64,000 nt of DNA from an uncultured archaeon (GTDB lineage Archaea > Aenigmatarchaeota > Aenigmatarchaeia > QMZP01 > JAFGSV01), in assembly GCA_964559215.1 (NCBI GenBank), contig CAZLFZ010000003.1, forward strand, positions 18,779 through 82,778. The letters run 5' to 3'. Within the stretch, counting starts at the first letter, position 1, and every line of letters starts with the position of its first letter. Below the pieces are notes generated by a model. That model searched no databases, was not told the origin of the DNA, and saw nothing but the letters and a program-made list of their open reading frames with translations. This document shows positions 9,001-27,540 of the stretch, piece by piece. Both the position numbers and the translations under genes were made by a program.

Positions 9001-12000
9001 AAATAACCGATAGTTTCATAAGTATGGGAGCCGCTATCATTTGCTTCCTCAACCCTTATCTCCATGCTTGAAGATGTGGGGTTGTTTTGCCTGGTGTGGG
9101 CTCCTGCTTCAGCAGTCCCTGAATCACCCCCCTCGTTGTAGGATTGTATATCCGATATAACAGCTGGCGTGGAGCCGAAATCAAATCCAAAGTTTACCGT
9201 TTTATAGTTACTGTCTATTGAATCGGTTCCAACATCAGCCCTTAAATTTCCTATTATCCAACTCCCATTTTTTAAGGCAACCCACCCAAAGATCTCTGTT
9301 CCATGCGGACCATCCAAATTGTGGTATTCTTCCACCCTGACATCAAAACCACCTTTTCTGGTTGCGTTTATCCTTGCAGACATTTTCGCGTTGTCATTAT
9401 AAGTCATGGCATCAGCAAAAACCACAGGCGCTTCGGAATACATATAATTGAAATTAACAGTTTTCCAGTTATGATCGGTATCAATCGTTCCGGCCTCACC
9501 AACGATTTCGTATGTTGAACTGATGTTGCTTTTACTTCCCGCCTGCTTGTAACCATAATACATGTAAATAGTCTGTTTTGCTGAACCCTGCAGTAATGGT
9601 AGTTTGACCCACACCTTCGTATCGGTTGTGTTGCAACCCGATTCCAGCCAGAATGATAACTCGTCATTACTTGAATTTACAAATCTTATGTCGTTACAAG
9701 AGCCGTTCATTTTCCCCTGAGAAATCAAAGACTTTGTGTCGACAGAGATGTTTACCTGATAATTTGTAAGGTTGACTCCGAGATTTTCGGAAATGTTTAT
9801 CGGCATCCTGTAAGGCCAAGATTTGTTCATCCAGCCTGCCCATTCCGTGAGATATACATTTTTATTCGCACTATAAGTTTCTTTTTCTGTGTTTACCAGC
9901 ACAGTTGCGTTCACCCTTATTGAGAAATTTTCTGGATTATCAGAACTTGAGACTGGGAGTGCCGATGTGTCTTCTGCCTGCACAAAATACGAATACTTTC
10001 CCCATTGCCATGTATCGTTGAAATCCAGCTCCCAGATGTCACCCGACTTGTAGCCCATATTAAGAAGGACCGAGGAATTGTTTGGAAAAGTTACATTTGT
10101 TTTGACACTGCCCGAATCCACACCTACATTATCAGTAATATTCGTGGCTATGGTCACGGTTTGTCCATAACCAGTTATATTGGGTGTCGCGTTGAACCAA
10201 TTTATTTGGGGCGGTTCGGCATCAATTTTCGACTGTACCGATATAGTTTTTATATCGGTTGCGTTTAGATTCCCCCGGGTGTCATTTGCGTAAAATCTGT
10301 ATCCAATGATTTTTCCAGCAGAGTACGCTGGAATTTGCAGCGTTTTGTTTGACCATTTTCCTGTACCAGAAAAGCTCTCTGCTGACTTGTTCTCCCAAGA
10401 ATCATCTACCGTAGCATTCCAGGAAAATATCCATGATGAGAGATTGTAATCATCCTCCCAGTAAGCGTAGAATTTAACATAATCGTCAATCGATGGGTTC
10501 GTTTCGTTGGCACCGACATTTGACCAGGCAGGTGCTGCCGGATCATAAACCGTGAGCAATCTCGGGGTCGAATTTGATTCGCCTGCGTTTGATGCATTGC
10601 ACTGAACCCTGAAGTAATAGTTGCCTGTTACCGGAGCGGTTATGTTGAAATAATTCTCTGATGTCGTACTTGCTGTTATATTTCCTACAAAATAATAAGT
10701 AGCGTTCGAATAGATATCCTGTCCGCTTGTGGGCGTGTCGTTCCAAACTTCGGTGCGGTTGTCCTGCAGAATTATATAGACGTCCGTTGCGTTGGTGTCT
10801 CCGTCCACTTCTGAACAGTTTCCCTGAAAAAAGACGCTCTGGTTGAAAGCGATTGAAGGAAGACCGATGAAATCCCCTTCCGCAGTAAGGTTTGTCGGGT
10901 ATTCGATAGTCTCGTTCGAATAGATGAAACCGCTGCTTGAGTTGAAGAAAATCGCGAGCCACGGCTCGGCAATATGGCCCTGCTCAGCATCCCCGTTCTG
11001 ATCCTCTTCTGCGAGGAAATAACACATGTTGCTGCCGGCGTCATAATCCCCTGCTGGATACAGGCCGTTCCCCCCGTCTATCTCTGTGCTTGAACCGAAG
11101 CACGCCCCGTCAGCATAACTGGCAGAAAGGGTGACGTAATAGCTTCCGATATCGTACGGGTCGTTCTGGGAACCCAGGACACTGTCCGACTCCCAGCAGA
11201 GTTCGTATGTGTACGTGTCCGTCCCGTTACCCGTCTCATAAGTGTTGCACGCCTCGCTGTTGTAGTCGTCGTTTATTTCCCATGCAATGTAACCGCCTTC
11301 CTCATCCAGGGTATGCAATGCGCAGGGGTTGTAGCTCCCCTGGCACTCGAGGCCGTTAAGTCCTATCTCGACGCAGGAATTGTCCCATACGTTGGCCTGG
11401 GTGCCGCACTGGTGTATGTACCAGATTATGGTGTCGTCGTCGTCGGCTGTCTGGACCGAGGCCAGGACCGCCGGCCTGTAAGTCCACGAATACTGGAAAC
11501 TCCTTTCGTTCTGTACGTAATTCCAGCCGGAGGGGGTTCCCGCCCCGCTGCCGCAGTAGTCCTTGTCAAGCGTGAAATTCTGAACCTCGACCATCCTGGA
11601 ATTCCCTCCGTCATTGTCCGTTACATTGTGGATGCCCTTCTTCATTGCCATCCAGTACATGCCGACTCCCGTCGAGGGACAGTCATCGTCCTCGGTACCG
11701 GAGTCCCACGACTCCGCCCTGGCATAAAACCCTTCCTTGGTGACGTTCTTTATCCTCGTGGCGCACGGGTTGTCGTCATAGTTATAATCATATTCCACGT
11801 AGTGGACTACAACGGGAATACCATCAAACTCATTTTTGAATTTCACTTCAGTCCATGAACCTTGCTGCAAATCCGTTTCATGACCCCACTCACCAACAAT
11901 CTTCCTTTCTGTTGCCTTGTTGCGTGCATACGCGACATACTCGCCGAACCTGAATTCAAGGGTATGCACCCCAGGCGTCAGGACCTTGCTGATCTCATAG

Positions 12001-13736
12001 CCTGTTTCATTGCATGAGTAGTTTTCTATAAATACCGATGAATTACCAGGGCCGTTGTCGATCCATTGGTATTCCAGCACAGCGTAACCGCATTTTATTC
12101 CCAAAAATTTCAAATCATAATCTTCATTGACGTTGCTCCAAGTAGTTCCGTTTACCGCTGTAATCGTGAGATTCGCGGTTCCATTCGTCTCGAAAATCAC
12201 GGTCCATTTCCCACCTACTGTCGGATAGGATTGGACGTTTATTATGTTTATGTCCGCTCCTGCGTATCCACTGAATTCCGTAACTGTAAAAGTCACATGA
12301 GTCCCGTTCTCTGTGAAAGGCATGCCCGTTTCAGTCCATTCCCCTTCACATTCAAAATTGTCAAAGTCCCAGTCGTCGCATCTCAATATCATGCTGACAG
12401 GACCGTGCTTAGGCAGGGTGATTTCAGCATCCGAGAAATTTATGGGATTGACGGCAATCACTTCCGTGTTTATCACTTTCTCTTCCACTTTCTCTCTCAC
12501 AAGTCCGGTCTGGATGTTCTTTAACTCGGAAATGTTCCTCAGGCCGAATAATCTTATCAAACCACCCCTCCCTCCAACACTTCCGTCAAACTGGACATCG
12601 AGATTGAATCTCTCACCAATCTTCTTTAGTTCACCAAACTCTATTTTTTTAGAGTGTTTTCCTAATCTGAGTGTGCTGAGACTGTTCTTGAGCCGAGCCA
12701 TTTCCATTTCTGCAGCCGTGATGTTTTCGGCAGATGGAACGACAATCTCTTCCAGCATGGAATAAACTATCTCATAAATTTCCAACCTTGTTCCAGGCTC
12801 GACTTCGAAAACTAGTATGTAAGAGCTTTCCTTGAATCCAAACAGCGAGCATGTCTCAATGCACTCCTCATCAAATGTTATGACAAATTCTTCGGTTATG
12901 TTCGGCATTTCTGTTACATTCTCTGTTATGTTTTCCAGAAGGGTAACATTTTCAATGACAGTCGGAACCGTTAAATTCTTGGCGACGGTCACATTTTTGG
13001 ATGATGTAAGATTGGTCTCATTTTGATTCGTTACATTTTCGATTAAAGGCACCGTGACATTCGTTACATTTTCTATTGTCACGTTTTCGATTATCGGGGC
13101 GGTAAAATTCGTCACATTCCCCCCCGTTTCATTCAACGTTTCATCAATTTCTTCTTCGTCTTCTCCATTCCCGGTATTATCTGTTTCATTCGTCAACGTT
13201 TCATTTATTGTAACATTAGTCAAATTTGATTCATTAGAACTGATTATAAAACCTGTTACAGAGATGGTGTTTCCAGCCAGTCTGTATTTGTTACCCATTC
13301 CGGAACTGTCAAGAACCAAGTATCTTTCACCGTCTTTTTCAAGATAAACCCTGACGGTTCCGTTCCCTTCAATTTTCCCATTCAACTTTAAAGATACAAG
13401 TTCTCCTGCATTCTCCGGCTTCCATAAGTATTCTCTAGGCTCTTCATATGAAAGCCCCAGTTTATCAACATGAATTGTTTCCCTTTCTTGAATAAAAAGC
13501 CCGGTAAAGTTGATGCTAAAGATTCCAAAGAAAGTTGTGGAAATGGAGATAACCAAAATTAATAATAAAACCCTTTTGTTCCACTGACCCGCAAAATTTC
13601 TAATTCTCAAAGTAGTGGGAGAAGGGGGTTTTGTACCAAGATATTTTGTTTTAACTTTATCTCCCACCCTATAATTTTCATAGTAATAAGGACCGAAAAC
13701 CTTGTTGCCACGCTTTATGTATTTCTTGTGGACCAA
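1..13736 (-). CDS. giant N-glycosylated cell-surface protein, 5' portion of gene (TTG start at 13736 preceded by in-frame TGA; reading frame open to position 1, >4570 codons; 3' end outside window)
   Basis: Hand translation of large parts of one minus frame gave no stop; the ORF track shows only short out-of-frame ORFs on either strand here. N-terminus (L)VHKKYIKRGNKVFGPYYYENYR followed by a hydrophobic signal-anchor is paralogous to the N-terminus of the 19813-25857 product. There are hundreds of NxS/T sequons. The segment ..NVQSYPTVGGKWTVIFETNGTANLTITAVNG..ENYSCNETGYEISKVL..HTLEFRFGEYVAYA is about 60% identical to the protein encoded at about 62790-63090 on the plus strand. Confidence 0.75.
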   Translation of the reverse strand, partial: MVHKKYIKRGNKVFGPYYYENYRVGDKVKTKYLGTKPPSPTTLRIRNFAGQWNKRVLLLILVISISTTFFGIFSINFTGLFIQERETIHVDKLGLSYEEPREYLWKPENAGELVSLKLNGKIEGNGTVRVYLEKDGERYLVLDSSGMGNKYRLAGNTISVTGFIISSNESNLTNVTINETLTNETDNTGNGEDEEEIDETLNETGGNVTNFTAPIIENVTIENVTNVTVPLIENVTNQNETNLTSSKNVTVAKNLTVPTVIENVTLLENITENVTEMPNITEEFVITFDEECIETCSLFGFKESSYILVFEVEPGTRLEIYEIVYSMLEEIVVPSAENITAAEMEMARLKNSLSTLRLGKHSKKIEFGELKKIGERFNLDVQFDGSVGGRGGLIRLFGLRNISELKNIQTGLVREKVEEKVINTEVIAVNPINFSDAEITLPKHGPVSMILRCDDWDFDNFECEGEWTETGMPFTENGTHVTFTVTEFSGYAGADINIINVQSYPTVGGKWTVIFETNGTANLTITAVNGTTWSNVNEDYDLKFLGIKCGYAVLEYQWIDNGPGNSSVFIENYSCNETGYEISKVLTPGVHTLEFRFGEYVAYARNKATERKIVGEWGHETDLQQGSWTEVKFKNEFDGIPVVVHYVEYDYNYDDNPCATRIKNVTKEGFYARAESWDSGTEDDDCPSTGVGMYWMAMKKGIHNVTDNDGGNSRMVEVQNFTLDKDYCGSGAGTPSGWNYVQNERSFQYSWTYRPAVLASVQTADDDDTIIWYIHQCGTQANVWDNSCVEIGLNGLECQGSYNPCALHTLDEEGGYIAWEINDDYNSEACNTYETGNGTDTYTYELCWESDSVLGSQNDPYDIGSYYVTLSASYADGACFGSSTEIDGGNGLYPAGDYDAGSNMCYFLAEEDQNGDAEQGHIAEPWLAIFFNSSSGFIYSNETIEYPTNLTAEGDFIGLPSIAFNQSVFFQGNCSEVDGDTNATDVYIILQDNRTEVWNDTPTSGQDIYSNATYYFVGNITASTTSENYFNITAPVTGNYYFRVQCNASNAGESNSTPRLLTVYDPAAPAWSNVGANETNPSIDDYVKFYAYWEDDYNLSSWIFSWNATVDDSWENKSAESFSGTGKWSNKTLQIPAYSAGKIIGYRFYANDTRGNLNATDIKTISVQSKIDAEPPQINWFNATPNITGYGQTVTIATNITDNVGVDSGSVKTNVTFPNNSSVLLNMGYKSGDIWELDFNDTWQWGKYSYFVQAEDTSALPVSSSDNPENFSIRVNATVLVNTEKETYSANKNVYLTEWAGWMNKSWPYRMPINISENLGVNLTNYQVNISVDTKSLISQGKMNGSCNDIRFVNSSNDELSFWLESGCNTTDTKVWVKLPLLQGSAKQTIYMYYGYKQAGSKSNISSTYEIVGEAGTIDTDHNWKTVNFNYMYSEAPVVFADAMTYNDNAKMSARINATRKGGFDVRVEEYHNLDGPHGTEIFGWVALKNGSWIIGNLRADVGTDSIDSNYKTVNFGFDFGSTPAVISDIQSYNEGGDSGTAEAGAHTRQNNPTSSSMEIRVEEANDSGSHTYETIGYLAIEEGVANTTYTNGVYFETGWDDCGPDLGSSPAWLTLSFTNNFGDTPGMIGAMMNENGYTDNSNTRMKDVGTAQFDITIEETPDFTGGHGIEPVGWFAIDNTSTIYGRKYVEQAPSVMNLGEEELTNLVDNEGTTDTSGYLLMQVTDNDTGEVIATQVNDSQTQTMRNVSTGGYLELGPIWNANPWNTDDYGTGYYNVLVVLTDLDGNVLVNDTGDNITGYYTLYIDRAEPEWNNLGANNTNPKPLEFVEFYCNWSDNGELDSWVFEWNVSGSMEQNGSGSFIGNPDWSNITRQIPSSMEIRTIAYRFVANDTEGNDNTTDTKYIDVQDVTPPVISNEYVSPGMININQSVDITADVTDNSGAVNTSWMYIGVPGDGYENETMTLLSGNTYNLSYKSTERGTYNATVYANDSSGNADNGSVVFWDVYGWSNVSWIDPDDGSYPRGSVINLICLVEDANYSGAISDYYVTFWHEGGQLGANYTNQSGYALYEWNTSNVDGGLHTVNCTIGDNSSLYYNASAVDNAYTSVTVLVPDLNVTVLEHENEHDHSVNEYETGDTIDWVNVTVNNTGGSTAYEVNVTLNLLDPAGDLATWFDEQVEECGSLSVSEVCEVQFSGDTILESADPGTYTWNVTINWSGGGSPPNYNTSSTFFVHHVPDNLSSSLSPTKILQKQSVIYNITIVNPWSLNVTSVNVTIGCHSNMTCNCSLAGQTDQLNYCYLGNVSDGGNETVSFNVTTNSSTVPGEYDINANVNYTNPGLELRSWTEQENQILSVRGPTKLRVNVTVFSVKVTRGSATGLRGYVNNTGTQVTNQVTLNWTLPPEWTNITGDMNVSNETLCADCLLWNNITANLSYDAELGEQKIELRAGSEEEEPDWKTETVTVYANTSIPEVWVNDTNPYRNSSVKIMARLLYDNSSPVTGESIMFKLNDTVLGSNSTNSTGYAVLYATVPYDAGLGSKKVNATYAGSGSIYTNPRYNDSLVASVQDDISIGNVAATPQIQGYGQNVTISADVWSRIEIGIVRANVTYPNGSWTWVDMGYSGSGNSYSGVFAGIWDWGDYSYWIWANNTVDFGNDTSSSPETFYLRANASVGVQTEKYLYGSNQNVLLDNQTWLDLDWPYRMPFNISENSGADLVEYALNISVNTKDLISQGKMNGSCSDIRFTNSTGDELPFWLESDCNDTNTSIWVKIPSLDALSNQTIYMYYGNLDAENKSNFTAAWKVIGEANVTKVNTTWHTISLKHSYTTPVVVHGPADFDANQDEEVVGRVTNVSSDGFEFKLQEPNEGGCRDDVHPDENISYIVVENGSWVLSDGRKLEAGNYSTSTTTGRAIGGDNTADPAAYDLISYRMSFSSAPVVVSQTMGYDDSDYDKTRMMDVTSSSFRISHNEDEGQSDIHGPEMVGWIAVEPGNGSVNGVDYNFGTTVADRYIDYCASPYECPWATQTFSIPVTNPPVLIANMQTVGGGDNAYIRYNNPTTSSVDFGVEEDPCSGTEKGGADETVGWMVFAGPVEIYGRQFLSTYPTVSNMSEEIAGNSIRNTGSLNISGYLLMQVEGNGSGYWEVIGVVADETFTRTINAGDSLNLVNIWNSDPWNTTGNTTGYYRVYTAFRGLDGAVLKNDSGGFINGSDVFRIEVEGPDIADVTATPQIIGYDQNLTISATITDSAGVAQAKINIIYPNSSTTSVDMVNTQGDTWACNFSYTWQWGDYNYSIWAQDNFGDANETSSNYQFSVRANVTVNLTTEYSVYGDDGLVNLSAASVKNTGTTNISLYFLMQVQVNDTGEIIATQVDDAQTETKRNVSAGKTLDIASVWNANPWNTTKNGTGYYNVLVTLTDPYGNVLTNDTGDNISGYYTFYIDRDEPEWNNLGANNTNPKPLEWIKFYCNWSDNGELDSWVFEWNVSGSMEQNGSGSFIGNPDWSNITRQIPSSAELKTIAYRFVANDTKGNSNTTDMKYVNIQDVTPPVISNEDVTPDLININQTVNITADITDNSGGVNASWAYIGMPSGGFDDNRSLTLLSGDTYNLTYKSTERGTYNVTVYANDSSANVDNGSVVTWDVYGWSNVTWIDPDDGSCPRGSVINLTCLVGDANYSTGIEDYSVMFWHEGGQLGANYTNQSGYAVYEWNTSDVDGGMHTVNCTIGDNSSLYYSASSVDNAYTTLTILVPDLNVTELEHENEYDNSVNEYETGDTIDWANVTVNNTGGSTAYDVNVTLNLLDPQNDLAAWFDEQSILCGSLSVGETCEVQFAQDTIQTGADPGTYTWNVTINWSGGGSPPNYNATSTFIIHHVPDNLSSVISPSKVQQNQSAVYNITIVNPWSLNMTSVNVTIGCDVNMTCNCSLAGQLNQIGYCYLGNVSSTENKTASFNITTNSSTVPGEYDITATVNYTNPGLEERSLAEQQNQILSVRGPTKLSVNISAYSVKVTRGQSYVLKGYVNNTGEEITNNVTLNWTLPPEWTNITGDMNISNETLCAGCLLWNNITANLSYDAGLGQKEIELRSESEEEEADWDTKSVTVYANTSIPIVLVNDTNPYRNGSILIQARLLYDNSSPVTGESITFKLNGNVLGSDDTNSSGYAALHTMIPYDANIGSNTVNASYAGSDLVYTNSKQNDSVSVSVQDEITIDNVVAIPQIQGYAQNVTISADVWSRVEIDTVRANVTYPNGTWTWLDLDYSGSGNIYSGVFESIWDWGDYSYWIWANNTMDFANETSGSPEEFYLRVNASIDLQTEETIYGPNQYVSIDTQNWWNKSWEWRIKINITEESGSNLTDYQVNITLNTTDFIQRNRMNNDCSDVRFVFFNDSVSKGGNTRLYHWIGDDCNQGNTTVWVKIPLLQENSNLSIYMYYGNPDAASESNISGTFVFGDDFKRPDNATVGNDWIEDGGYEAYSSVENNQLKISSGSSTGAYWKQVHHTMLEPDGDYVVEFKGDASQTDKNVFSNYFGEQNNRRLTILFCSDGKIKYLNQTAFEDTTKTYSPNTYFDFRIWYKKSAGKGNYYVNGDL
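240..10300. repeat. intragenic tandem super-repeats (at least 3 units of about 4.2-4.9 kb) within the giant gene; unit junction landmarks '..a(t/a)tacatgtaaat(c/a)g' near 475, 5388 and 9557
   Basis: DNA self-similarity at offset of about 4.9 kb, e.g. 990-1170 vs 5880-6070 (about 80% identical) and 700-900 vs 5600-5800. A block of about 130 bp at 3228-3360 is essentially identical to 8119-8250. Antisense artefact ORFs 2481-2954 and 7356-7622 in the track encode near-identical peptides, which confirms the duplication. Confidence 0.7.
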
Positions 13737-14200
13737 TCACTTCACCAGTTAACCTATAGGTGGCATGCTACCGATTTATAATTGGAATAAATCAGTTAAC
13801 CTACACTATATTATTCGGGAAGGTTGCTTAATAATATAGCTTAAGAAAAAACCAGAAACATGACGAAATGTTCGGAAAAGATCTGATCAAAACGGAAATT
13901 TGTTTTACCCAGCAGGATGGTTCGAATGAAATTTAAGTTCGGAAAGCCTTATAGAATACTTGGCAGGGGAGTAGAAGTTATTTCGGGACAACGCACGTGA
14001 AAAGGCGGACAGTTAACTTTTTAAAGCTTTGCTTACATCCATATAGATTAGAACTGGAAAATACTGCTCCTTCTAGGCAGGTTAACCAGAGCATAAAGAA
14101 TATGCGAAAACAATAAGAACAATGAGAAAATAAAACATATTGAGAACAAGATTAAGATTAAATATAAAATCATGATTATCGATTAAGGAGATGATAAAGT

Positions 14201-18317: not shown

Positions 18318-18527
18318 TTCCTTCTTAAAAAGCTGACTATTTCAACTTCAAAATTTGTAGAATTCCCGAAAATTTCAAATCATAAAAATTTGTCAAAGAA
18401 CTATTTTAATAGATGGCGGATTTCTCATGATACTTTATATCAAGGTATCAAGGTTTCGGATAGGAAAACAAAATAAATCTTCTGTCACTAGCGAAAATTC
18501 GACGGAAACACAGCTTTTCAGAACAAG

Positions 18528-19812: not shown

Positions 19813-20540
19813 TTATTTCTTACCCTTGTTTTTCCCCACATCTTTCGCTTTTTTCTTTTTCTCTTTCCGCTGCTTGCCATAGTCCTTTTGCACGCGCTTT
19901 GTGTCCTCAGCGGTTTCCAGCAGTTTAGCCATACTCTTTTCTGCCTGTTCTTCTTTCTCAGCTTCTTCCTTGATGTGTTTCTCAATCGCCCTTACATCCT
20001 CCAGCTCCTCGAGCAATTCCAATCCCTTTTTTTGTTCTTCAGCATCTTTTTTGGTAAGCTTTGGGAGCTTTTTCAACTCCCCCTTTTTCTTCTCGTAGTC
20101 CTTTTGCACGCGTTTTATGTCCTCTAACTTTTCCATTAGTTCGTTTTCCCTCTTCCATATTTTTTCCTGCTTCTCGGCCTTCTGTTCGGACTCTTTTTCC
20201 AGGGCCTTGGTATTCTCCAGCTCCTCGAGCAGCTTCAGCTCTTTGTCCCTCTTCTCGATTTCTGATTTCTTCAGTTTCTTTACCTTTATCCTTGTTCCGG
20301 TCTTTTTCAACCATTTATCGTATTGTTTCTGTACCCCCTTCATATCCTCAGCTTTTTCGAGCACAGCAAACCATCTTTTCTCTTTCCTTCTCTTAACTTT
20401 CCTGTCAGTTTCTTTCTGAACGGCTTTTACATCTTCAAGCTCTTCAAGCATCTGCTCTGTTGCTATTTGCTTTGCCTTCTCCTTCTTTCTCGGCTCCCTT
20501 GTTTTTTTCGGCAAGCCGGAGGGGAGTCTCGCCCCTGACA
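19813..20540. repeat. tandem coding repeats of about 215-220 bp (6 copies of the LEELEDxKxVQKDY motif) in the cytoplasmic tail
   Basis: Recurring DNA strings ctccagctcctcgagca (about 19995, 20215), gtccttttgcacgcg (about 19883, 20098) and tcttcaagctcttcaagca (about 20437). These generate the low-complexity artefact ORFs seen on the plus strand. Confidence 0.6.
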
Positions 20541-23500
20541 GTTTCCAGGCCCACAATATCCAGAAAATGAATGCAAGTGCTATGAGTATGAACTGCCACA
20601 GTTCGTCAGGGATGTGTGTCACTATTTCCCATGTGTAGGTTTTCTCGATCCAGACGATACCGGCGATCATTGCCAGATTGCTGAGATGCATGAGCGGCAG
20701 GCCAATGACCAATCCCAGCGCCCTCTTTCTGCCCGTGACACCCACCGTAGCTAATACAAGCGCTGCGTAGATGAGTAGGGACTCCAATCCCGTCACCTGC
20801 ACAGCTCTGGTGACGGCATCAGCAAGTGGGATGAAACCCAGCACATTCGTGATGAAAAGTACTTCTTCCCTGACGACTGCCTGCACAATGCTCATGTCGG
20901 GACGCAGCCAGCGTATAAGATACACCGGGATGCAGAACACGAGAAGCCGGAGCGCAAAGTACAAGAGGTATACCCCCTTCCGCTGCATCGCACTCGATTT
21001 CGTTGAGGCGATGGCCCACCTGAGCGAACGTAAAATCAGTACGGGGAACTTAAAGAGCTGCGAAAGAATGTACCGGGGCCGCACGATTTCGTGTAGCTTC
21101 TTTCCATTTTCCTCTATTAGACTGCTTATCTCAAGCAGCCTGTCATGCTCTTTGGTGATTATCTTCAGGTACGTGGCTTTATCGATTTGCCTGGTGAAAT
21201 ACTGAGCCTCTGTTGATTCTTCTGTTTTGGCAGTTATTTTTGCCTCTTCTCCCAACTTCCTGGTCTCTTTTTTCAGCCTGTAGAGGGGGATGAAGAGCTG
21301 GGTTGTAAAGAAGCTTGCGAAGAAGATGGCAAGTGCTATTCCTGTGATGTACCATTTGTTCTCAAACAGGAACTTTTGAATCCCCACCCTGGCTAATCCA
21401 AGTCCAATTTCATTAATCCCCATTTCTATCCTGGAAATTGAAATCCTTAATTCTTCCAGATCGTCCATTTTTATAGCATCCATTGACTCCGAAATCGTTT
21501 TTTCGATGTTCTTTACCTTTCCATGCAAGGCGCCAACATCAACGCCTGCCTTGGCATACTCATTGACCCTTAAAACCAAGTCTGGTACCTGTTTTTCCAG
21601 CCCATTTAAAGAAGTAATCAAGGGGTTTTCAAGCACAACGATATTTACACTTTTACTTTTCTCCAAATCAGCAGTGCCTATTCTAACAGTTAGCAAATAC
21701 TCTCTCAACTCTGTGTTAAGGGGCACGTGGATAATTACCGAAAAATCTATTTCGCCCTTAACGGGCAAATAAAATTCTTTGTCTATGAAGACAGCACAAC
21801 ACTCCTTTGTTATGTTAGAGCTCAGGTTGAGATCAAGGTTTCCCATGTTAGCAATGGAGCCGATAACCGTCCCGTTCTCACCCCCAACTATTTCAATAAC
21901 CCTGGTGTCAACTGTCACGTTAAAATTCTCAGTCCAAATTATGCATGCCGGGTCTCTGGCACAGTCTGTGTCACCGCAATCCACAAATCCGTCACAATCG
22001 TTGTCAAGCCCATCAGAGCAATTCTTTGGAGTTGGGACACATGTAACATTGCTTATGTTGCCGACAATGCTGGGTCCTCTTCCCCTACTTGGCGGGGGCT
22101 CTGCGGCTTCCTCGGCTTTCGTTTTAAGTGATAAAGAGCCAGGTCCTGTGTTGTTATACTCGTCTGTTGCATTAGCCGTCAAGTAAAATTCGATTCCTGG
22201 TGTTGAGGATGACCTGCAGTCAGCGGAAATGTTGTAATACAAATCACCGGTTCTTTCCAGTGAAAAATTGCCGTTGGGGCAAAACAGGGCCACGTTCACG
22301 GTGTAACCCAATAGTTCATTTCTTGAGTTATACACCTCTATCTGGGGTATGGGGGATATCCCGGAATTGGCAGAATACTCGGTCCCGGCAGGGGGCTGGG
22401 TGAATACGGGAAGCAGGCTGGAGCTTACGTTGAAATACCATGTACCGTTTCCCCTATTCTCCTGTTTTGACACATTTGCAAACATGGTGCAGTTTCCAGC
22501 TGGGTCGCTTTCATTTATCTGATAAGTATAGGTTGTGTTGGTTTCGTTGAATATCATTGCTTCGCTCTGGTTATATCTCGTCAGATTAACGGTCCAATTA
22601 ACCGAACTTACCAAATTGTCATTAACATCATAAACCTTGAGTGTCAGGGTTTCCCCTCTGCTATAAACAGATTCGTTCGTGGTCAGATTTAACGTGTACG
22701 AATCACTGACGTAGAAGGTGAGATTTTCCGGACAGCCCACATCCTCCCCGCTCTTTTTTTCATTATTGCCAATATCTACCGCTGTTATTCTTATCGTACA
22801 ATTCCCTGTTCGGTTTAATTCAAGGTTTTCTACATTATTTCCAGCACCGAATTTAAATTGCCAGATATCACTCGAAATCTTTTCCAAAGTCCCATTAACG
22901 CTGATGTTATCAGGATAGGTGATGTTGGCTCTTACAGATACGAGACTCACGTCATCTGTGGCATTCACAAAAATTGAAAGGGAAGTGAAAAGATTTGTTT
23001 TGTTCACCCCTATCCCACTGTAGTTGAACCAGAAATCGGTCACATTTGGTGGTATGGGGTCTTCCAGTATAACATCTATTGACAGTGAAGAATAGTTAAA
23101 CCCTCCCTCTCTGGTGCTGGAATTCACATAAGTCGTTGTGTTTGTCACGCCAACAGCACTTGCGTTTATGCTCCAATTAACAGAAGAAGAGGAGCCACTC
23201 GGGATAAAAGATATGTTTTTCGTCCAATTTTCACCAGCGCTTATGTTCAAGATAGTCTGATTCTCGATACTAAGGTTTATGGTTAAATTCCTGAGATCGC
23301 CATTGTCCGCGGAAACCAGGGTTTTGTACGTCTTTGTTTCGCCCTTAATTATGACTTCCGGCGCATCTATCGACACCAGGGACTCTCCAAAATTGACCAC
23401 AAAGCTTGCATTATTCCTGACAGAACTATCCTGGGTGTAAACGGTGGCGTTAACGATGTGAGCACCGGACAGTGTTATGTTCGTGTAATTAAACTCATAG

Positions 23501-25857
23501 ACATAGCACATGGAAACTCTTTCCTCTGCTGTAAATAATCTGAACTCATAGATTATCAGGACAGCTGACGAGGAGTGATTTACCCTTATTTGGTTTGTTC
23601 TGAAGGGCGAGAATCCGGAAAATTCAGTCAAATTCTTGTCGTCGGGCGGGTTCACATCGGTGAAAAGAGGCATCCATGCACCGCTTTTTTTGTATAAAAT
23701 AGAAACATTTGCCTGACCGGCGCCATCCTCCCATAAGGCCTCGATTCTATCAAAGGTATAGCTGTCATTCAGCGTTATCTCAAGCCATGATGGGGTTTCA
23801 TCGCCAATCCAGGCAGTGTCAGTATTGTTGTCTATAGACAAGTTGCAGGACCCGACGTTGCAATTACCGCTTGTCCCTAAGTCAAGTAGCGCAACATTTT
23901 GACCTGTTCCTGTCCCAGCTTCTACACATTCGCTTTCATTTAGAATAGCAACCAATGCAGAGCTTGTGAAATCAACCCCAGCTAAATAGGGCTTTTCTAT
24001 GCTGAAGTTCAGCATATTTATGGGTGTCACATTTCCCACCACCTCTGTCCTTAGGGTTGTGTCGCCTGTGATGTTTATTGTGCTTGGAAATACAGTAATG
24101 TCTGGTAAAATAACTTCGTGTGAAATAGAATCCTCAGCACCAGTGCCATTGGCAGGGGTTGCATGCAAAGAGACACGTGTAAATCCTTCCTGTTTTGACT
24201 CTGCTTCCCATTTCACCGTTATTGTTGTCCCGTTTGTAATATTATACAGCTCCGGTTTGGACCACGTTCCCCCGGGGGTGAGGTTCAGAACACTTCGGTC
24301 CGTGATATTTAAAGTCAAATTCACCTGCATCAAATCCCCGTTTATAGCGGTAACGTTTACAGTGATGTTGCACGTTTGATTAGCAAGAATTCTGAAATTT
24401 GGAAAGATGAACTGGAGCTCAGTTGAGCCAAAACCCACCTCAAAGGAAAGATTGGTATAATCTTCAAAGTTTATATTCCCCAGGGTATCGTTTGCCCAGA
24501 CTTGCATTACATTATATGTTCCTAGCTGAGAAGTATCGTTCCACTCATAGATCCAGAAATCAGTGCCACTAGAATTAGAAAGAGTTACATTAACCTCTGT
24601 CCCATTTGGATACATAAAAGTCGCATTAACCGCGCTAACACCACTCGTGTCGTTTACTGTTACATTGAACAACACTCCATGACCAGGCTGGATTTTCGTC
24701 TCGTTCAACTGCGGGTTTGAAATTGTTGGACCTGTTGTATCATAGCTTAGTGTCTTCCATGCAGTACAATTATAGGTACCAGAGCAGTAGAATTCCATCT
24801 TTACTGGTATACCACCAACCCATTCAAGACACTCCCATTGTTGACAGACCTTCTTTGTTTCATCCCAAAAACTACAGTTCCATCTGTCACAGTAGTAGTC
24901 TGTTTCTGAGAATGCTCCATCGATTGAGCCTAAACACTCCCATTGATCGCAATAATTTCCATTCCAAGCAGAGCAATTCCATCCATTTGAACAATACCTG
25001 TCATACTCCTCTGAACTTTCAGCCCATGCTGTGCAGTTCCAAGCCTCGCAAACATCTCCATTCCAAACTATACAATCCCATACACCAGAACAATAAGAGT
25101 CTGCCTTTTGAGTTGATCCCTGAGCCCATTCGGTGCAATTCCAAATGTCACAATTAGTTCCGTTCCAGTTTGTACAGTTCCAGATGCCAGTAGAATAGTA
25201 ATCAGAGTCGTCATTTTCACTAAGAGACCAAGCTGTACAGTTCCAGTATCCACAATACCCCCCATTCCACTCTAGGCAATCCCAGTCACCAGAACAATAC
25301 ATAAGTCGTCTATCTTTTCCGCTGTTTGTCCACCCCTCGCACTTGTATTCTGCACAAGTAACCCCATTCCAACGTGTGCAGTTCCAGTTGCCTATACAGT
25401 ATTTTGACTGCTTGTCATCATCATATGTCCATGCCGTGCAGTTCCATAATTCACACTTCTCTGTAGTCTGTCCATAATCATTTAACTGGATTGGGGATTC
25501 ATCAAAATTATTGCCATCTGCCGGTCCCTTATCACTTACCCAAAAACCTTCAGACGACATAAAGAATGCGAGTGTCGCTTTTGGAGTAGCTGATACTAAA
25601 GGAATAAAGAAAAAAATGGTAAATAAAGAAATTAAGAAAACACCGAAAAACATACCTCCTTTTTTTCTACGCAGGATGTTTCTAAAAGGTCTCCGCCTGG
25701 GCTTGTGTTTCTTTCTAATTTCTTTCAACTTTTTTGTTGCCCCAGAGAAATCCTGACCAAGATAAACGTTGATGACCCGGCCATCCTTGTCCCTGAAGCT
25801 TTCATAATAATAAGGCCCGTGAATTTTTTTGCCTCTTTTTATATACTTCTTGTACAC
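19813..25857 (-). CDS. giant cell-surface glycoprotein (2014 aa): cytoplasmic N-terminal motif, signal-anchor, Cys/Trp repeat array, sequon-rich Ig/CARDB-like region, multi-TM segment and Lys/Glu-rich cytoplasmic repeat tail
   Basis: Complete ORF in the track. N-terminus MYKKYIKRGKKIHGPYYYESFRDKDG followed by TM FFGVFLISLFTIFFFIPLV. About 7 copies of WNCTAW..YCSG.W(N/D)C..WNG..C. More than 100 NxS/T sequons. About 7 predicted TM helices near the C-terminus, then LEELEDVKAVQK(D/E)Y repeats. Confidence 0.85.
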   Translation of the reverse strand: MYKKYIKRGKKIHGPYYYESFRDKDGRVINVYLGQDFSGATKKLKEIRKKHKPRRRPFRNILRRKKGGMFFGVFLISLFTIFFFIPLVSATPKATLAFFMSSEGFWVSDKGPADGNNFDESPIQLNDYGQTTEKCELWNCTAWTYDDDKQSKYCIGNWNCTRWNGVTCAEYKCEGWTNSGKDRRLMYCSGDWDCLEWNGGYCGYWNCTAWSLSENDDSDYYSTGIWNCTNWNGTNCDIWNCTEWAQGSTQKADSYCSGVWDCIVWNGDVCEAWNCTAWAESSEEYDRYCSNGWNCSAWNGNYCDQWECLGSIDGAFSETDYYCDRWNCSFWDETKKVCQQWECLEWVGGIPVKMEFYCSGTYNCTAWKTLSYDTTGPTISNPQLNETKIQPGHGVLFNVTVNDTSGVSAVNATFMYPNGTEVNVTLSNSSGTDFWIYEWNDTSQLGTYNVMQVWANDTLGNINFEDYTNLSFEVGFGSTELQFIFPNFRILANQTCNITVNVTAINGDLMQVNLTLNITDRSVLNLTPGGTWSKPELYNITNGTTITVKWEAESKQEGFTRVSLHATPANGTGAEDSISHEVILPDITVFPSTINITGDTTLRTEVVGNVTPINMLNFSIEKPYLAGVDFTSSALVAILNESECVEAGTGTGQNVALLDLGTSGNCNVGSCNLSIDNNTDTAWIGDETPSWLEITLNDSYTFDRIEALWEDGAGQANVSILYKKSGAWMPLFTDVNPPDDKNLTEFSGFSPFRTNQIRVNHSSSAVLIIYEFRLFTAEERVSMCYVYEFNYTNITLSGAHIVNATVYTQDSSVRNNASFVVNFGESLVSIDAPEVIIKGETKTYKTLVSADNGDLRNLTINLSIENQTILNISAGENWTKNISFIPSGSSSSVNWSINASAVGVTNTTTYVNSSTREGGFNYSSLSIDVILEDPIPPNVTDFWFNYSGIGVNKTNLFTSLSIFVNATDDVSLVSVRANITYPDNISVNGTLEKISSDIWQFKFGAGNNVENLELNRTGNCTIRITAVDIGNNEKKSGEDVGCPENLTFYVSDSYTLNLTTNESVYSRGETLTLKVYDVNDNLVSSVNWTVNLTRYNQSEAMIFNETNTTYTYQINESDPAGNCTMFANVSKQENRGNGTWYFNVSSSLLPVFTQPPAGTEYSANSGISPIPQIEVYNSRNELLGYTVNVALFCPNGNFSLERTGDLYYNISADCRSSSTPGIEFYLTANATDEYNNTGPGSLSLKTKAEEAAEPPPSRGRGPSIVGNISNVTCVPTPKNCSDGLDNDCDGFVDCGDTDCARDPACIIWTENFNVTVDTRVIEIVGGENGTVIGSIANMGNLDLNLSSNITKECCAVFIDKEFYLPVKGEIDFSVIIHVPLNTELREYLLTVRIGTADLEKSKSVNIVVLENPLITSLNGLEKQVPDLVLRVNEYAKAGVDVGALHGKVKNIEKTISESMDAIKMDDLEELRISISRIEMGINEIGLGLARVGIQKFLFENKWYITGIALAIFFASFFTTQLFIPLYRLKKETRKLGEEAKITAKTEESTEAQYFTRQIDKATYLKIITKEHDRLLEISSLIEENGKKLHEIVRPRYILSQLFKFPVLILRSLRWAIASTKSSAMQRKGVYLLYFALRLLVFCIPVYLIRWLRPDMSIVQAVVREEVLFITNVLGFIPLADAVTRAVQVTGLESLLIYAALVLATVGVTGRKRALGLVIGLPLMHLSNLAMIAGIVWIEKTYTWEIVTHIPDELWQFILIALAFIFWILWAWKLSGARLPSGLPKKTREPRKKEKAKQIATEQMLEELEDVKAVQKETDRKVKRRKEKRWFAVLEKAEDMKGVQKQYDKWLKKTGTRIKVKKLKKSEIEKRDKELKLLEELENTKALEKESEQKAEKQEKIWKRENELMEKLEDIKRVQKDYEKKKGELKKLPKLTKKDAEEQKKGLELLEELEDVRAIEKHIKEEAEKEEQAEKSMAKLLETAEDTKRVQKDYGKQRKEKKKKAKDVGKNKGKK
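24750..25440. repeat. array of about 34-residue Cys/Trp-rich repeats (WNCTAW..(x11)..YCSGxW(N/D)CxxWNGxxC) within the giant protein
   Basis: Visible in the translation: WNCTAWTYDDD.., WNCTRWNGVTC, WDCLEWNGGYCGYWNCTAWSL.., WNCTNWNGTNCDIWNCTEWAQ.., WDCIVWNGDVCEAWNCTAWAE.., WNCSAWNGNYCDQWECLG.., WNCSFWDE... Each unit carries an N-C-T sequon. Confidence 0.65.
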
Positions 25858-26083
25858 CAGCTCACCAACTACTTGCCTTATTTTCGCATCCAGGAATAGC
25901 TAATTGATAGCTAATTATTACTAATTATTATATTGTAAGTAACCTTTAATAAAGAGCTGGTTAAACCCACATGTTTGGTGAGCTTTCATTACCTCATAAT
26001 CGGGCGCATTCACCTGTTACTTACATTAATGGAATGGGTAAGAAACTGAAATGTTCGACGACTGAAACGTTATCAATTGGATG

Positions 26084-26854
26084 CTATTGTTTGTCAAAAA
26101 GGCTCTGCGCCTGGACATCTATCCCTTTGTTGGTAATCGTGAAATTGTAATACCCTTCGGTGAACGCAGAGCCACGTATCTTTTGTATGCTCAATCCCCT
26201 ATATGCTTTCCCCTCGCTATGCACATAGTCTAATTGTATGACCCCGTCAGCAATGAATTTCAACTGTTGCCAGTAGCCTGTTTCCGCCTCAACGGTAACC
26301 AGGGCGGTGACACCCAATTTTGCTATGTGTTTAAAGAAGGTCATGGCTCCCATCCTCGCCAGCGACTCAGAATCTGCCATCAAACTGATCGCGGTCAGGG
26401 GGTCTATGACCAAGCGTCGTGCACCAATTTCATTGACCGCCTCCTTGATAAGTTCAATGAGCGTATTGGTCGAAAGAAAATGGACACTTTTTTGGGCTTG
26501 TGACGTTGAACTAGTATATGCCGATAAAGCATTCTCAATATCACTAGAGACCGCCCTTATGTAAGGGATCACGCGGACCAAGTTTTCCCTTTCCAGTTTC
26601 TCTAGATCCCAGCCAAAGGATTTGATATTGCTTAACATCTTTGGCTTATCTTCTTCCAGATTGACGAGGACGCCCGGCTCCTTGAACTTGGCTGCACCAT
26701 TATAGATGAACTCCAACCCAAATATAGTCTTCCCTGTTCCGCAACCGCCAGTAATCACATAGATTTTCTTTTCTGGCAACCCTCCGTTTAAGAGTTCATC
26801 TAACCCTGCTATCCCGGTTTTGACCCGTTTCGGACCTGGTCTTTTTTCGCCCAT
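26084..26854 (-). CDS. single-domain KaiC-like ATPase
   Basis: GIAGLDELLNGGLP, Walker A GGCGTGKTIF, ..LVIDPLTA..; 256 aa. Confidence 0.9.
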   Translation of the reverse strand: MGEKRPGPKRVKTGIAGLDELLNGGLPEKKIYVITGGCGTGKTIFGLEFIYNGAAKFKEPGVLVNLEEDKPKMLSNIKSFGWDLEKLERENLVRVIPYIRAVSSDIENALSAYTSSTSQAQKSVHFLSTNTLIELIKEAVNEIGARRLVIDPLTAISLMADSESLARMGAMTFFKHIAKLGVTALVTVEAETGYWQQLKFIADGVIQLDYVHSEGKAYRGLSIQKIRGSAFTEGYYNFTITNKGIDVQAQSLFDKQ

Positions 26855-26861
26855 TTTCCCT

Positions 26862-27410
26862 TCACCTACCCTTTTCCTTACCCGTAAATATAATTTTATC
26901 AGAAAACATGCCCAAGTTTTTTATGAAATCTTCGTGCGCATCTTCTTCGAGACAGATAAAAATGCACCCCTTCTCAGATATTCTAAGCTTCGATACCAGC
27001 AAGTGCGTGAACTTGATGGCACTTGCCTGACTCCCATAGACCAAAAGGGTGGACAAGGAATCAAACAAGATGCAATCCACGTGCATGAGCAATGCCTTGG
27101 TAACCGTTATGCTCAATTCGGTGAGCGCATCAGGAGAAGATACAAATAACACCTGCCCTTCTTTCTGTTTTTCATCTACCCCCTTTACACAATCTATAAA
27201 AAGTATCTTCTTCGTATCGATTCCTCCCCCTTTAAATTCCTTTGTCAAGGTCGTGTACGGCTTGTTAAGAGACAAGTAACATATCATATTATGAATCTTT
27301 GTAGCAGCGCCAACAATCTCCTCTAGGGCGGTTCTATAGTTTTTGCTGGGAACAACAAAAACAACGACTTGATTTTCCTTCATCTCCATCTCTAGGTTTA
27401 TTTTCAGCAT
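26862..27410 (-). CDS. Walker-A-less KaiC/RecA-fold small protein (MEDS-like), 182 aa; operon partner of the KaiC at 26084-26854 (7-nt gap)
   Basis: Aligns along the KaiC core, but the P-loop is replaced (VVVFVVPSKNYRTALEEI). Conserved FIDCV ... ILFDSLSTLLVY ... FICLEED shared with three paralogs in the window. Confidence 0.75.
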   Translation of the reverse strand: MLKINLEMEMKENQVVVFVVPSKNYRTALEEIVGAATKIHNMICYLSLNKPYTTLTKEFKGGGIDTKKILFIDCVKGVDEKQKEGQVLFVSSPDALTELSITVTKALLMHVDCILFDSLSTLLVYGSQASAIKFTHLLVSKLRISEKGCIFICLEEDAHEDFIKNLGMFSDKIIFTGKEKGR

Positions 27411-27540
27411 CGTTACCTCGCGCTTCTACAGATCACGATTCGTGTTATGTTTTTCGTATTTTATTTTTATATGCTCTGCTTAATTAAGTTTTGGTAAGAA
27501 GCCTCATATTTATTAACGAAGAGAATACTTAAGATTTAAT

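What the first reader, a model, noticed from the sequence alone, without database searches (positions are those of the whole stretch)
25660..25857. Conserved cytoplasmic N-terminal module (KKYIKRGxKxxGPYYYE) preceding the signal-anchor in two giant surface proteins
The 19813-25857 product starts MYKKYIKRGKKIHGPYYYESFRDKDGRVINVYLGQD, followed by a basic stretch and a TM helix. The 1-13736 product starts (L)VHKKYIKRGNKVFGPYYYENYRVGDKVKTKYLG followed by a TM helix (coding 13650-13736). A structured, conserved, about 35-residue cytosolic module ahead of a signal-anchor is unusual for archaeal secreted proteins. It may be a sorting or secretion-coupling tag specific to this giant-protein family.
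Basis: seen in the sequence. Interest (0 to 1): 0.5.

Follow-up and report, generated by a model that had tools for sequence, protein, structure and literature searches.

The report
Conserved N-terminal handle on DPANN surface proteins
The two giant surface proteins begin with a real, previously undescribed 34-residue folded, very basic domain followed by a membrane helix; the same cassette heads more than 1,500 families of surface proteins in tiny symbiotic (DPANN) archaea, and its function is unknown.

Summary
Both giant minus-strand genes (19813-25857; partial 1-13736) start with MV[YH]KKYIKRGxKxxGPYYYExxR...GKV..YLG, then a basic linker and a hydrophobic helix. The start codons are sound.

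- **Family size.** A profile of the motif finds 1,506 protein clusters. The match starts at residue 1 in about 95% of the best 150.
- **Taxa.** All 80 genome loci examined come from DPANN archaea.
- **Position.** A membrane helix follows in 76 of 79 cases.
- **Translation.** Synonymous codons vary at every conserved residue.
- **Structure.** AlphaFold2 predicts a three-stranded beta-sheet (pLDDT 90-95).
- **Ectodomains.** They are unrelated to one another (lectin, beta-helix, propeller and others) and heavily sequon-rich.
- **Variants.** The cassette also exists as 70-105 aa mini-proteins with no ectodomain. In three genomes it is a separate gene upstream of a giant gene.

My reading: this is a membrane-anchored cytoplasmic "handle" shared by DPANN surface proteins, not merely a tag of one giant-protein family or a leader acting only on its own polypeptide. 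The partner and function are unknown. I found no description of it.

The parts
25756..25857 (-). Module of gene A, residues 1-34 (MYKKYIKRGKKIHGPYYYESFRDKDGRVINVYLG). Predicted three-stranded antiparallel beta-sheet, net charge about +6.
   Evidence: Translation. AF2 strands 2-8, 11-22 and 28-34 with pLDDT 90-95. Profile hits.
25654..25755 (-). Basic linker of A, residues 35-68. AF2 predicts a helix at 37-50. The stretch is K/R-rich (KKHKPRRRPFRNILRRKKGG).
   Evidence: The stretch between module and helix (residues 36-79 as computed) has net charge +13.
25588..25653 (-). Hydrophobic helix of A, residues 69-90 (MFFGVFLISLFTIFFFIPLVSA). It ends in a possible signal-peptidase site, VSA|TP.
   Evidence: Hydropathy. 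AF2 helix 59-89. Resembles the ordinary signal peptide ...LPSVAA|SN of the third giant ORF.
25862..25866 (-). GGTGA Shine-Dalgarno-like box, 4 nt upstream of the GTG start of A.
   Evidence: Sequence. Same box upstream of B and of the orthologues L066 and L080.
19813..25857 (-). Gene A, 2,014 aa. Order of parts: module, linker, helix, a sequon-rich ectodomain of about 1,370 aa (11 WNCTxW repeats, F5/8 type C domain), five more hydrophobic segments, then a K/E-rich repeat tail.
13635..13736 (-). Module of gene B, residues 1-34 ((M)VHKKYIKRGNKVFGPYYYENYRVGDKVKTKYLG), net charge about +8.
   Evidence: Translation. Alignment with A. Orthologues in L066 and L080 have the same TTG-GTC-CAC start.
13572..13634 (-). 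Linker of B, residues 35-55 (TKPPSPTTLRIRNFAGQWNKR); net charge +4 over residues 37-56.
13488..13571 (-). Hydrophobic helix of B, residues 56-83 (VLLLILVISISTTFFGIFSINFTGLFIQ). It contains the FTG motif at residues 77-79 (13500-13508).
   Evidence: Hydropathy. The hydrophobic-residue-TG motif follows signal helices in related archaea.
13742..13746 (-). GGTGA Shine-Dalgarno-like box, 5 nt upstream of the TTG start of B. An in-frame TGA at 13737-13739 closes the frame upstream.
   Evidence: Sequence.
1..13736 (-). Gene B, more than 4,578 aa, 3' end outside the window. After the module and helix comes an ectodomain with 259 sequons, carrying DUF2341 x3, H-type lectin, NPCBM_assoc and Filamin-like domains. 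An internal duplication has an offset of about 1,630 aa.

Best explanation
The 34 residues form an autonomously folding, strongly basic, tyrosine-rich three-stranded beta-sheet. With the basic linker and the hydrophobic helix that follow, they make one conserved N-terminal cassette.

Proposed mechanism:
1. The domain folds as soon as it leaves the ribosome. Being folded and highly positive, it stays on the cytoplasmic side.
2. The following helix engages SRP/Sec and inserts N-in/C-out.
3. The ectodomain, anywhere from 0 to more than 4,500 residues, is threaded outward and N-glycosylated.
4. The domain remains at the inner face of the membrane. Its nearly invariant surface (K..Y.K...K..GPY.YE.YR) docks one common partner. 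It therefore acts as a shared handle that anchors, localises or couples many different surface proteins.

Shown here: conservation, translation, N-terminal position, predicted fold, the following helix, the charge and sequon asymmetry, diverse or absent ectodomains, and occurrence as a separate gene.

Inferred: the topology, persistence of the domain after insertion, and the existence of a common partner.

Unknown: the partner's identity. Candidates are translocon/SRP components, the ribosome or RNA, DNA, and anionic lipid.
For: - **Family size and position.** 1,506 clusters match the profile, and the match starts at residue 1 in about 143 of the best 150. The remaining seven all have an internal Met exactly at the module start.
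- **Genome loci.** All 79 instances in 80 loci sit at the extreme N-terminus, and 76 are followed by a membrane helix beginning at residues 37-79. The uncharged run has a median of 24 aa.
- **Selection on the protein.** Several synonymous codons (both, for two-codon residues) are used at every conserved position.
- **Structure.** AF2 gives pLDDT 90-95 for three strands, in two independent runs.
- **Topology.** Module charge is +6 (A) and +8 (B), linker +13 and +4, and the region after the helix -5 and -3. In A all 87 sequons lie in residues 105-1470, with none in 1-80 or 1500-2014. In B 259 sequons lie in the ectodomain and none in 1-56.
- **One handle, many cargoes.** Ectodomain Pfam content is unrelated among members.
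- **The cassette is the constant core.** Mini-proteins without an ectodomain occur on long contigs (P0291, P0286, P0354). A three-gene arrangement (module-plus-helix mini-gene, then a protein of about 70 aa, then a giant gene with its own helix) is conserved in three genomes. In at least 10 loci a module gene sits directly downstream of rpl7ae-rps28e-rpl24e, and its length there ranges from 52 to more than 3,368 aa.
Against: - No experiment or proteomic datum bears on topology, processing or partner.
- No conserved partner gene appears in 80 neighbourhoods.
- Both window proteins have plausible signal-peptidase sites after the helix (VSA|TP in A, FTG in B). If these are cut, the handle would be detached from the mature protein.
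- Some module-only ORFs are split genes. In L065, one extra A in an A7 tract would fuse the module ORF to the next ORF.
- The mini-proteins could be decay products, although P0291 and P0286 each recur on three contigs.
- The third giant surface protein in the window lacks the cassette, so it is not required for large surface proteins.
Confidence: 0.5

Rival explanations
1. Extended cleavable signal peptide, which is the first reader's idea and works like ESPR. On this view the module plus helix form a leader of about 80-90 residues. It acts only on its own polypeptide, to route or pace export of very large cargo, and signal peptidase then removes it.
For: - It lies directly N-terminal of a hydrophobic segment in large secreted proteins.
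- A ends its helix in PLVSA|TP, much like the ordinary signal peptide PSVAA|SN of ORF 42999-47267.
- B and many homologues carry a hydrophobic residue followed by TG-x-[VA]-[VI] about 27-29 residues after the helix start. The same motif follows ordinary signal helices in neighbouring genes without the module: 29 of 256, against 10 of 891 ORFs with no N-terminal helix.
- There is precedent. The 25-residue ESPR extension heads long signal peptides of type V secretion proteins and slows their export (PMC8151025).
Against: - Conserved mini-proteins consist of module plus helix only.
- In three genomes the cassette is encoded separately, next to giant genes that have their own helix.
- A confident folded domain is unlike the linear n-region motifs of known signal-peptide extensions.
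- The hydrophobic run is the length of a membrane span (median 24 aa).
- Another giant glycoprotein in the same window is exported without it.
Confidence: 0.22
2. Membrane-tethered nucleic-acid-binding or regulatory domain. On this view the module resembles an AP2 or integrase arm-type domain and binds DNA or RNA (or a small transcription factor) at the membrane. It could couple giant adhesins to gene expression or to the translating ribosome, possibly after proteolytic release. The architecture matches ToxR or anti-sigma factors.
For: - The predicted fold is a three-stranded sheet followed by a helix.
- Net charge is +6 to +8, with 5 (A) to 6 (B) tyrosines.
- In the split arrangement a highly conserved winged-helix-like protein of about 70 aa lies between the mini-gene and the giant gene.
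- A module gene recurs directly downstream of three ribosomal-protein genes.
- A family-specific DNA motif, GTTACACTACAAA, lies upstream of many module genes in related lineages.
Against: - Foldseek finds nothing with E<1.
- hhalign against the lambda Int arm domain gives probability 1.5%.
- Many paralogues per genome carrying a nearly identical DNA-binding surface would be unusual for regulators.
- The winged-helix assignment is sub-threshold and that neighbour is found in only three genomes.
- The upstream motif is absent from the two window genes.
Confidence: 0.15
3. The conservation reflects DNA or RNA function rather than protein function. The 5' end would be a recombination cassette, a phase-variation site or an mRNA element. 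Alternatively the true start lies downstream (for example Met69 of A), so the module is never translated.
For: - One 59-nt stretch of A is 95% identical to L005.
- Poly-A runs of 7 or more occur in the first 270 nt in 38% of module genes, against 5.7% of control windows.
- L065 is split at an A7 tract.
Against: - Several synonymous codons (both, for two-codon residues) are used at every conserved residue across 81 genes.
- The module begins exactly at ATG, TTG or GTG in every case, with stop codons 0-30 codons upstream.
- A Shine-Dalgarno-like box lies directly upstream in both window genes.
- AF2 folds the sequence confidently.
- The AAA share of lysine codons is the same as in the rest of the genes (0.67 against 0.70). 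The poly-A runs therefore follow from lysine richness.
Confidence: 0.03

Closest known systems
DUF6788 (Pfam PF20586), an uncharacterised family of about 100 aa in bacteria and archaea
   Same: Both share the core G.GPY[YW]Y..[YW]R...GK....Y[VL], which corresponds to strand 2, the turn and strand 3. It is the only recurrent Pfam match: 17 of 44 N-termini at E<=1, best 2.6e-4, always aligned to profile positions 44-76. About 30% of the short homologues in the protein database carry a precomputed PF20586 hit.
   Different: - Scores are 12-17.5 bits against a gathering cut-off of 27.2.
- The module lacks the CGKxxCxC knuckle and the flanking helices. A consensus sequence I recalled from memory scores 114 bits on this model and shows what those features look like.
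- The module sits at residue 1 and is followed by a membrane helix.
- DUF6788 has no known function, so the link explains nothing yet.
ESPR, the extended signal peptide region (PF13018) of type V secreted proteins
   Same: Both are lineage-restricted, conserved N-terminal extensions ahead of the hydrophobic core of the export signal in large surface proteins (adhesins among them). ESPR affects export kinetics rather than targeting (PMC8151025).
   Different: - ESPR is a 25-residue linear motif in diderm bacteria and is always part of a cleaved signal peptide.
- There is no sequence similarity: no Pfam hit at E<=10.
- The present module is a folded sheet, is archaeal, and also occurs without cargo.
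KxYKxGKxW and YSIRK signal-peptide motifs of Gram-positive surface proteins
   Same: Both are Lys/Tyr/Gly-rich conserved motifs in the n-region of large, glycosylated or wall-anchored surface proteins (YSIRK: PMC5962339; the rest from my own knowledge). KKYIKRGxK looks superficially like KxYKxGKxW.
   Different: No NCBIfam or Pfam hit at E<=10. The spacing differs. Those motifs lie within a normal-length signal peptide and are not folded domains.
Arm-type DNA-binding domains of tyrosine integrases, and AP2 domains
Bitopic membrane regulators (ToxR/CadC, anti-sigma factors such as RseA and FecR)
   Same: Same architecture: a small N-terminal cytoplasmic domain, a single membrane helix, then an extracytoplasmic domain.
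   Different: The resemblance is in architecture only. The folds differ, the ectodomains here are adhesin-like and up to thousands of residues long, and there is no evidence of signalling.

Membership tests
DUF6788 (PF20586) | Score at or above the Pfam gathering cut-off (27.2 bits) | tested here: not met
   Window protein A scores 12.4 bits (E 0.19) and B gives no hit. The best member whose score was printed reaches 17.5 bits (the best member overall has E 2.6e-4; its score was not printed).
DUF6788 (PF20586) | Conserved GPY[YW]Y...R..GK....Y core | tested here: met
   Matches always align residues 9-42 to profile positions 44-76. The core is shared with a consensus that scores 114 bits on the model.
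DUF6788 (PF20586) | Cys knuckle (CGKxxCxC) before the GPY core, and flanking helices covering the 103-position profile | tested here: not met
   The module starts at residue 1 with MVYKKYIKRG and has no cysteines. Only about a third of the profile is covered.
ESPR (PF13018) | Match to the ESPR profile at the N-terminus of a long signal peptide | tested here: not met
   No hit at E<=10 for either N-terminus.
KxYKxGKxW signal peptide (the NCBIfam/TIGRFAM model TIGR03715 and its Pfam counterpart, accessions as I recall them) and YSIRK | Match to the family profile | tested here: not met
   NCBIfam returns no families at E<=10. These families do not appear in the Pfam lists.
Integrase arm-type / AP2 DNA-binding domain | Three-stranded sheet packed on a C-terminal helix, with significant structural similarity | tested here: inconclusive
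Integrase arm-type / AP2 DNA-binding domain | Sequence or profile similarity | tested here: not met
   hhalign of the 47-sequence profile against lambda Int 1-64 gives probability 1.5%. No Pfam arm-domain hits.
Integrase arm-type / AP2 DNA-binding domain | Sequence-specific DNA binding | not testable with these tools
   Needs gel-shift or footprinting assays with purified module.
Known archaeal N-terminal sorting signals (Tat, lipobox, class III/prepilin) | Family-wide conserved twin-arginine motif, lipobox cysteine, or [KR]G|[ASQ] ahead of the helix | tested here: not met
   By inspection of 79 N-termini and the window proteins. There is no conserved RR-x-FLK; A has an RRRPF string that B and the homologues lack. 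There is no cysteine at the end of the helix, and no conserved glycine before the helix.

The most novel reading that the evidence does not exclude
The module may be the cytoplasmic end of a DPANN-specific coupling system: a membrane-tethered, nucleic-acid- or ribosome-binding beta-sheet domain, distantly related to DUF6788 and perhaps to arm-type/AP2 folds. It would link the giant host-contact proteins to the cell interior. Possible routes are tethering the translating ribosome or mRNA during very long co-translational export, or holding and releasing a small winged-helix regulator when the ectodomain engages a host. The ectodomain-less mini-proteins and the gene trio (mini-gene, winged-helix-like gene, giant gene) would be the separately encoded form of the same device.
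Probability: 0.15. Interest if true: 0.85.

Novelty: new variant of a known kind. Interest (0 to 1): 0.6.

Why it matters
DPANN archaea live attached to other cells. Their surface proteins are presumed to mediate attachment to and exchange with the host, yet most are unannotated. [quoted passage not shown]

A 34-residue signature at residue 1 that marks more than 1,500 protein clusters offers three things:
- a simple way to list a large part of the DPANN surface proteome from sequence alone;
- a pointer to a shared cytoplasmic partner or pathway that has not been described;
- a small, confidently folding domain that can be made and tested for binding to lipid, RNA, DNA, or SRP/Sec components.

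It also gives a first biological context for the DUF6788-like GPYYY core.

Tried and rejected
- **Sequence families.** NCBIfam gave nothing at E<=10. Pfam gave only sub-threshold DUF6788.
- **Solved structures.** A profile search of PDB sequences gave one chance hit, E 0.48.
- **Fold comparison.** hhalign against the lambda Int arm domain gave probability 1.5%. Foldseek against PDB found nothing with E<1. The afdb50 library was unavailable.
- **Viruses.** The scan of viral contigs found no relative.
- **Conserved neighbour genes.** All-against-all clustering of 1,316 ORFs from 80 loci plus the window found no partner shared by more than 9 loci. The KaiC-like genes flanking gene A are particular to this window.
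- **Upstream DNA motif.** The weight matrix built from related loci does not match upstream of the two window genes at 10 bits or more. I therefore report it only as a feature of related lineages.
- **Phase variation at poly-A tracts.** The runs are enriched at the 5' end, but the AAA codon share is unchanged, so lysine richness explains them.
- **Literature.** There were no papers for 'DUF6788' and no relevant paper for GPYYYE, GPYYY or HGPYWY. DPANN surface-protein papers do not mention the motif.
- **Tool limitation.** The search for homologous proteins with a short profile returns only short proteins. Family size and protein lengths therefore come from the exhaustive representative search.
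Full report
**1. What is in the window**

Reading the minus strand confirms both N-termini.

Gene A (19813-25857, 2,014 aa) starts at GTG 25857. An in-frame TAG lies 14 codons upstream, with no alternative start codon in between. A GGTGA box lies 4 nt upstream of the start.

Gene B (1-13736, more than 4,578 aa, running off the window) starts at TTG 13736. That TTG directly follows an in-frame TGA, and GGTGA lies 5 nt upstream.

The two modules share 20 of 36 residues. A six-frame motif scan finds no other copy in the 64 kb. The window has no tRNA or Rfam match.

The organism is probably an Aenigmatarchaeota-like DPANN archaeon. The closest named homologues of a citramalate/homocitrate-synthase-like gene carry that label. 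The species-representative contig behind locus L066 shows conserved gene order with part of the window and carries an orthologue of B.

**2. It is a large family, and always at residue 1**

A 36-position profile built from the two window copies and 18 database hits was searched exhaustively against 1.84 billion cluster representatives. It found 1,506 clusters at E<=1e-3 and 398 at E<=1e-10.

In the best 150, the match begins at residue 1 in about 143. The seven exceptions all have a Met exactly where the module begins, so they are over-extended gene calls.

A scan of one genome per prokaryotic species gave at least 196 confirmed sites. The best 80 loci are labelled Woesearchaeota, Pacearchaeota, Nanoarchaeota or Undinarchaeales. 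One record is labelled "bacterium" and one "Methanobacteriota". The latter's protein is close to those in an Undinarchaeales MAG and in archaeon UBA55 (all 1,657 aa).

In all 79 instances the GPY triplet sits at residue 14-15 of the ORF. In 76 a hydrophobic helix begins at residues 37-79. Across 151 non-redundant members, the uncharged run starts at about residue 51 and has a median length of 24 aa.

Complete genes have a median length of 1,305 aa. Of 47 complete genes, 27 are at least 1,000 aa and 7 are at least 2,000 aa.

**3. It is translated and folded**

At every conserved residue the 81 genes use several synonymous codons (both, for two-codon residues). Gly uses all four codons, Arg five or six of the six, and Ser five. 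Selection therefore acts on the protein, not on the DNA.

Homologues begin ATG or TTG followed by GTN. Gene A has CTG-GTG, so it starts one residue later.

AlphaFold2 was run with alignments of database members. It predicts strands 2-8, 11-22 and 28-34 with pLDDT 90-95. A helix follows (37-50 in A), and then a membrane helix (59-89).

**4. Predicted topology**

| Region | Gene A | Gene B |
|---|---|---|
| Module net charge | +6 | +8 |
| Linker net charge | +13 | +4 |
| About 30 residues after the helix | -5 | -3 |
| Sequons in the N-terminal region | 0 (residues 1-80) | 0 (residues 1-56) |
| Sequons in the ectodomain | 87 (residues 105-1470) | 259 |

A also has no sequons in residues 1500-2014. 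This fits a cytoplasmic N-terminus and a glycosylated ectodomain. It remains a prediction.

**5. What it is attached to**

Ectodomains are unrelated among members:
- F5/8 type C in A;
- DUF2341, H-lectin, NPCBM_assoc and Filamin-like domains in B;
- beta-helix/NosD, SBBP propeller, LamG, CBM96 and dockerin elsewhere;
- one member with a C-terminal HerA-like ATPase.

The third giant surface protein of the window (42999-47267) has an ordinary signal peptide and no module.

The cassette also occurs without any ectodomain. P0291 (79 aa), P0286 (71 aa) and P0354 (79 aa) lie on contigs of 17-132 kb, and the genes that follow them are unrelated or on the opposite strand.

In three genomes there is a trio of genes:
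- a module-plus-helix mini-gene;
- a gene for a protein of about 70 aa, 81-90% identical across the three genomes, with weak winged-helix similarity;
- a giant surface-protein gene that has its own membrane helix.

In at least 10 loci a module gene lies 115-700 nt downstream of rpl7ae-rps28e-rpl24e on the same strand. Its length there ranges from 52 to more than 3,368 aa.

The constant part is therefore the module plus helix. The ectodomain is variable or optional.

Some module-only ORFs are split genes. In L065 the module ORF overlaps the next ORF by ATGA, and one extra A in an A7 tract would fuse them.

**6. Comparison with known families**

The only recurrent Pfam match is DUF6788: 17 of 44 N-termini, best E 2.6e-4, 12-17.5 bits against a cut-off of 27.2. 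It covers only the GPYYY...GK...Y core.

I recalled a DUF6788 consensus from memory and it scores 114 bits on the model. This shows that bona fide members have a Cys knuckle and flanking helices, which the module lacks.

NCBIfam gave nothing. There was no match to ESPR, YSIRK or KxYKxGKxW.

I found no paper describing the motif.

**7. Interpretation**

The pattern is one nearly invariant module, many unrelated cargoes, and a restricted lineage. That is the pattern of a shared recognition element.

It does not explain the cargo-less mini-proteins or the separately encoded arrangement.

I therefore favour a membrane-anchored cytoplasmic handle that docks a common partner, at confidence about 0.5. 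The alternatives are a cleaved extended signal peptide (about 0.2) and a membrane-tethered nucleic-acid-binding or regulatory domain (about 0.15). Explanations based on DNA-level function or a wrong start codon are essentially excluded.

No conserved partner gene was found in the neighbourhoods.

**8. Verdict**

The feature is a new variant of a known kind, namely lineage-specific N-terminal elements of surface proteins. It is unusual in being a folded domain that also exists on its own.

Noticed in passing
Related loci, for example L018:9983-9996, L015, L022, L033, L021 (14-100 nt upstream of the module start codon): A DNA motif, consensus AGTTACACTACAAA, lies upstream of about half of the module genes in Woese-/Pacearchaeota loci. 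It often comes with a second, inverted copy 50-140 nt upstream and an AAAGAGG box. In the 45 nt upstream, TTACAC occurs in 12 of 68 module genes against 5 of 848 other ORFs, and CCTACA in 9 against 1. Of 131 weight-matrix hits in 1.06 Mb (both strands scanned), 40 fall in the 125 nt upstream of module genes. It is not found upstream of the two window genes. Only a weak look-alike, GGTTACTTACAATA, lies at window 25931-25944.
   Followed up: partly
Related loci (for example L041:10146-10571, L074:18189-18800, L067:12848-13432); window B residues 77-79 (13500-13508): A motif of a hydrophobic residue followed by [TS]-G-x-[AV]-[VIT] (ITGYA, FTGKV and similar) sits about 27-29 residues after the start of N-terminal signal or membrane helices. 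It occurs in proteins with and without the module: 29 of 256 ORFs with an N-terminal helix, against 10 of 891 without one. It may be the processing site or the mature N-terminus of secreted proteins in these archaea.
   Followed up: partly
L085:5001-5231 / 5393-5614 / 5611 onward; L086:5001-5252 / 5420-5626 / 5623 onward; L043:4519 onward / 4989-5180 / 5180-10648: A gene trio is conserved in three genomes. First comes a module-plus-helix mini-protein (76-104 aa). Next comes a protein of about 70 aa, 81-90% identical across the genomes, with sub-threshold winged-helix similarity (TBPIP, Penicillinase_R). Last comes a giant surface protein with its own membrane helix.
   Followed up: partly
L014, L026, L045, L060, L065, L071, L072, L075, L089, L091: A module gene lies directly downstream, on the same strand, of the ribosomal-protein genes rpl7ae-rps28e-rpl24e. 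Its length at this conserved position ranges from 52 aa to more than 3,368 aa.
   Followed up: partly
L065:1694-1855 and 1816-3105: A module-only ORF of 53 aa overlaps the next ORF by ATGA. That next ORF encodes a protein with a signal peptide. One extra A in an A7 tract would fuse the two. Poly-A runs of 7 or more occur in the first 270 nt of 38% of module genes against 5.7% of control windows, but lysine richness explains this.
   Followed up: partly
window 17313-19780 and 26084-28089: Gene A is flanked on both sides by KaiC-like ATPase genes (19025-19780 and 26084-26854). Further KaiC-like or DUF7504 fragments lie nearby (18528-19028, 26862-27410, 27541-28089), along with a CBS-plus-KaiC-like gene (17313-18317). 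KaiC-like genes were not among the gene families recurring in the related loci.
   Followed up: no
window 24820-25446 (minus strand; A residues 138-346): Eleven copies of a Cys/Trp repeat, W[NDE]C[TSLI]xW (mostly WNCTxW, each carrying a sequon), lie at the start of A's ectodomain. No Pfam match.
   Followed up: no
window 19813-21350 (minus strand; A residues about 1500-2014) and 42999-43400: After its ectodomain, A has five more hydrophobic segments and then a Lys/Glu-rich tail carrying three LE[EK][LA]E[DN].K motifs spaced 29 and 44 residues apart. The third giant ORF (42999-47267) and several related proteins end in a similar membrane helix plus K/E-rich tail.
   Followed up: no
window about 860-3420 and 5760-8310 (minus strand; B residues about 1809-2660 and 3440-4290): Gene B contains a large internal duplication with an offset of about 1,630 residues. 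The copies share many exact 12-mers.
   Followed up: no
window 42999-47267 (minus strand): A third large surface protein (1,422 aa; Laminin_G_3, NPCBM_assoc) has an ordinary short signal peptide, MANGYLSILVLILLLFPFLPSVAA|SN, and no module.
   Followed up: yes
P0081 (3,670 aa, database protein): This module-bearing protein has a CBM96 domain and, near its C-terminus (residues 3219-3286), a HerA/DUF87 ATPase-like stretch. That suggests a cytoplasmic C-terminal domain on some members.
   Followed up: no
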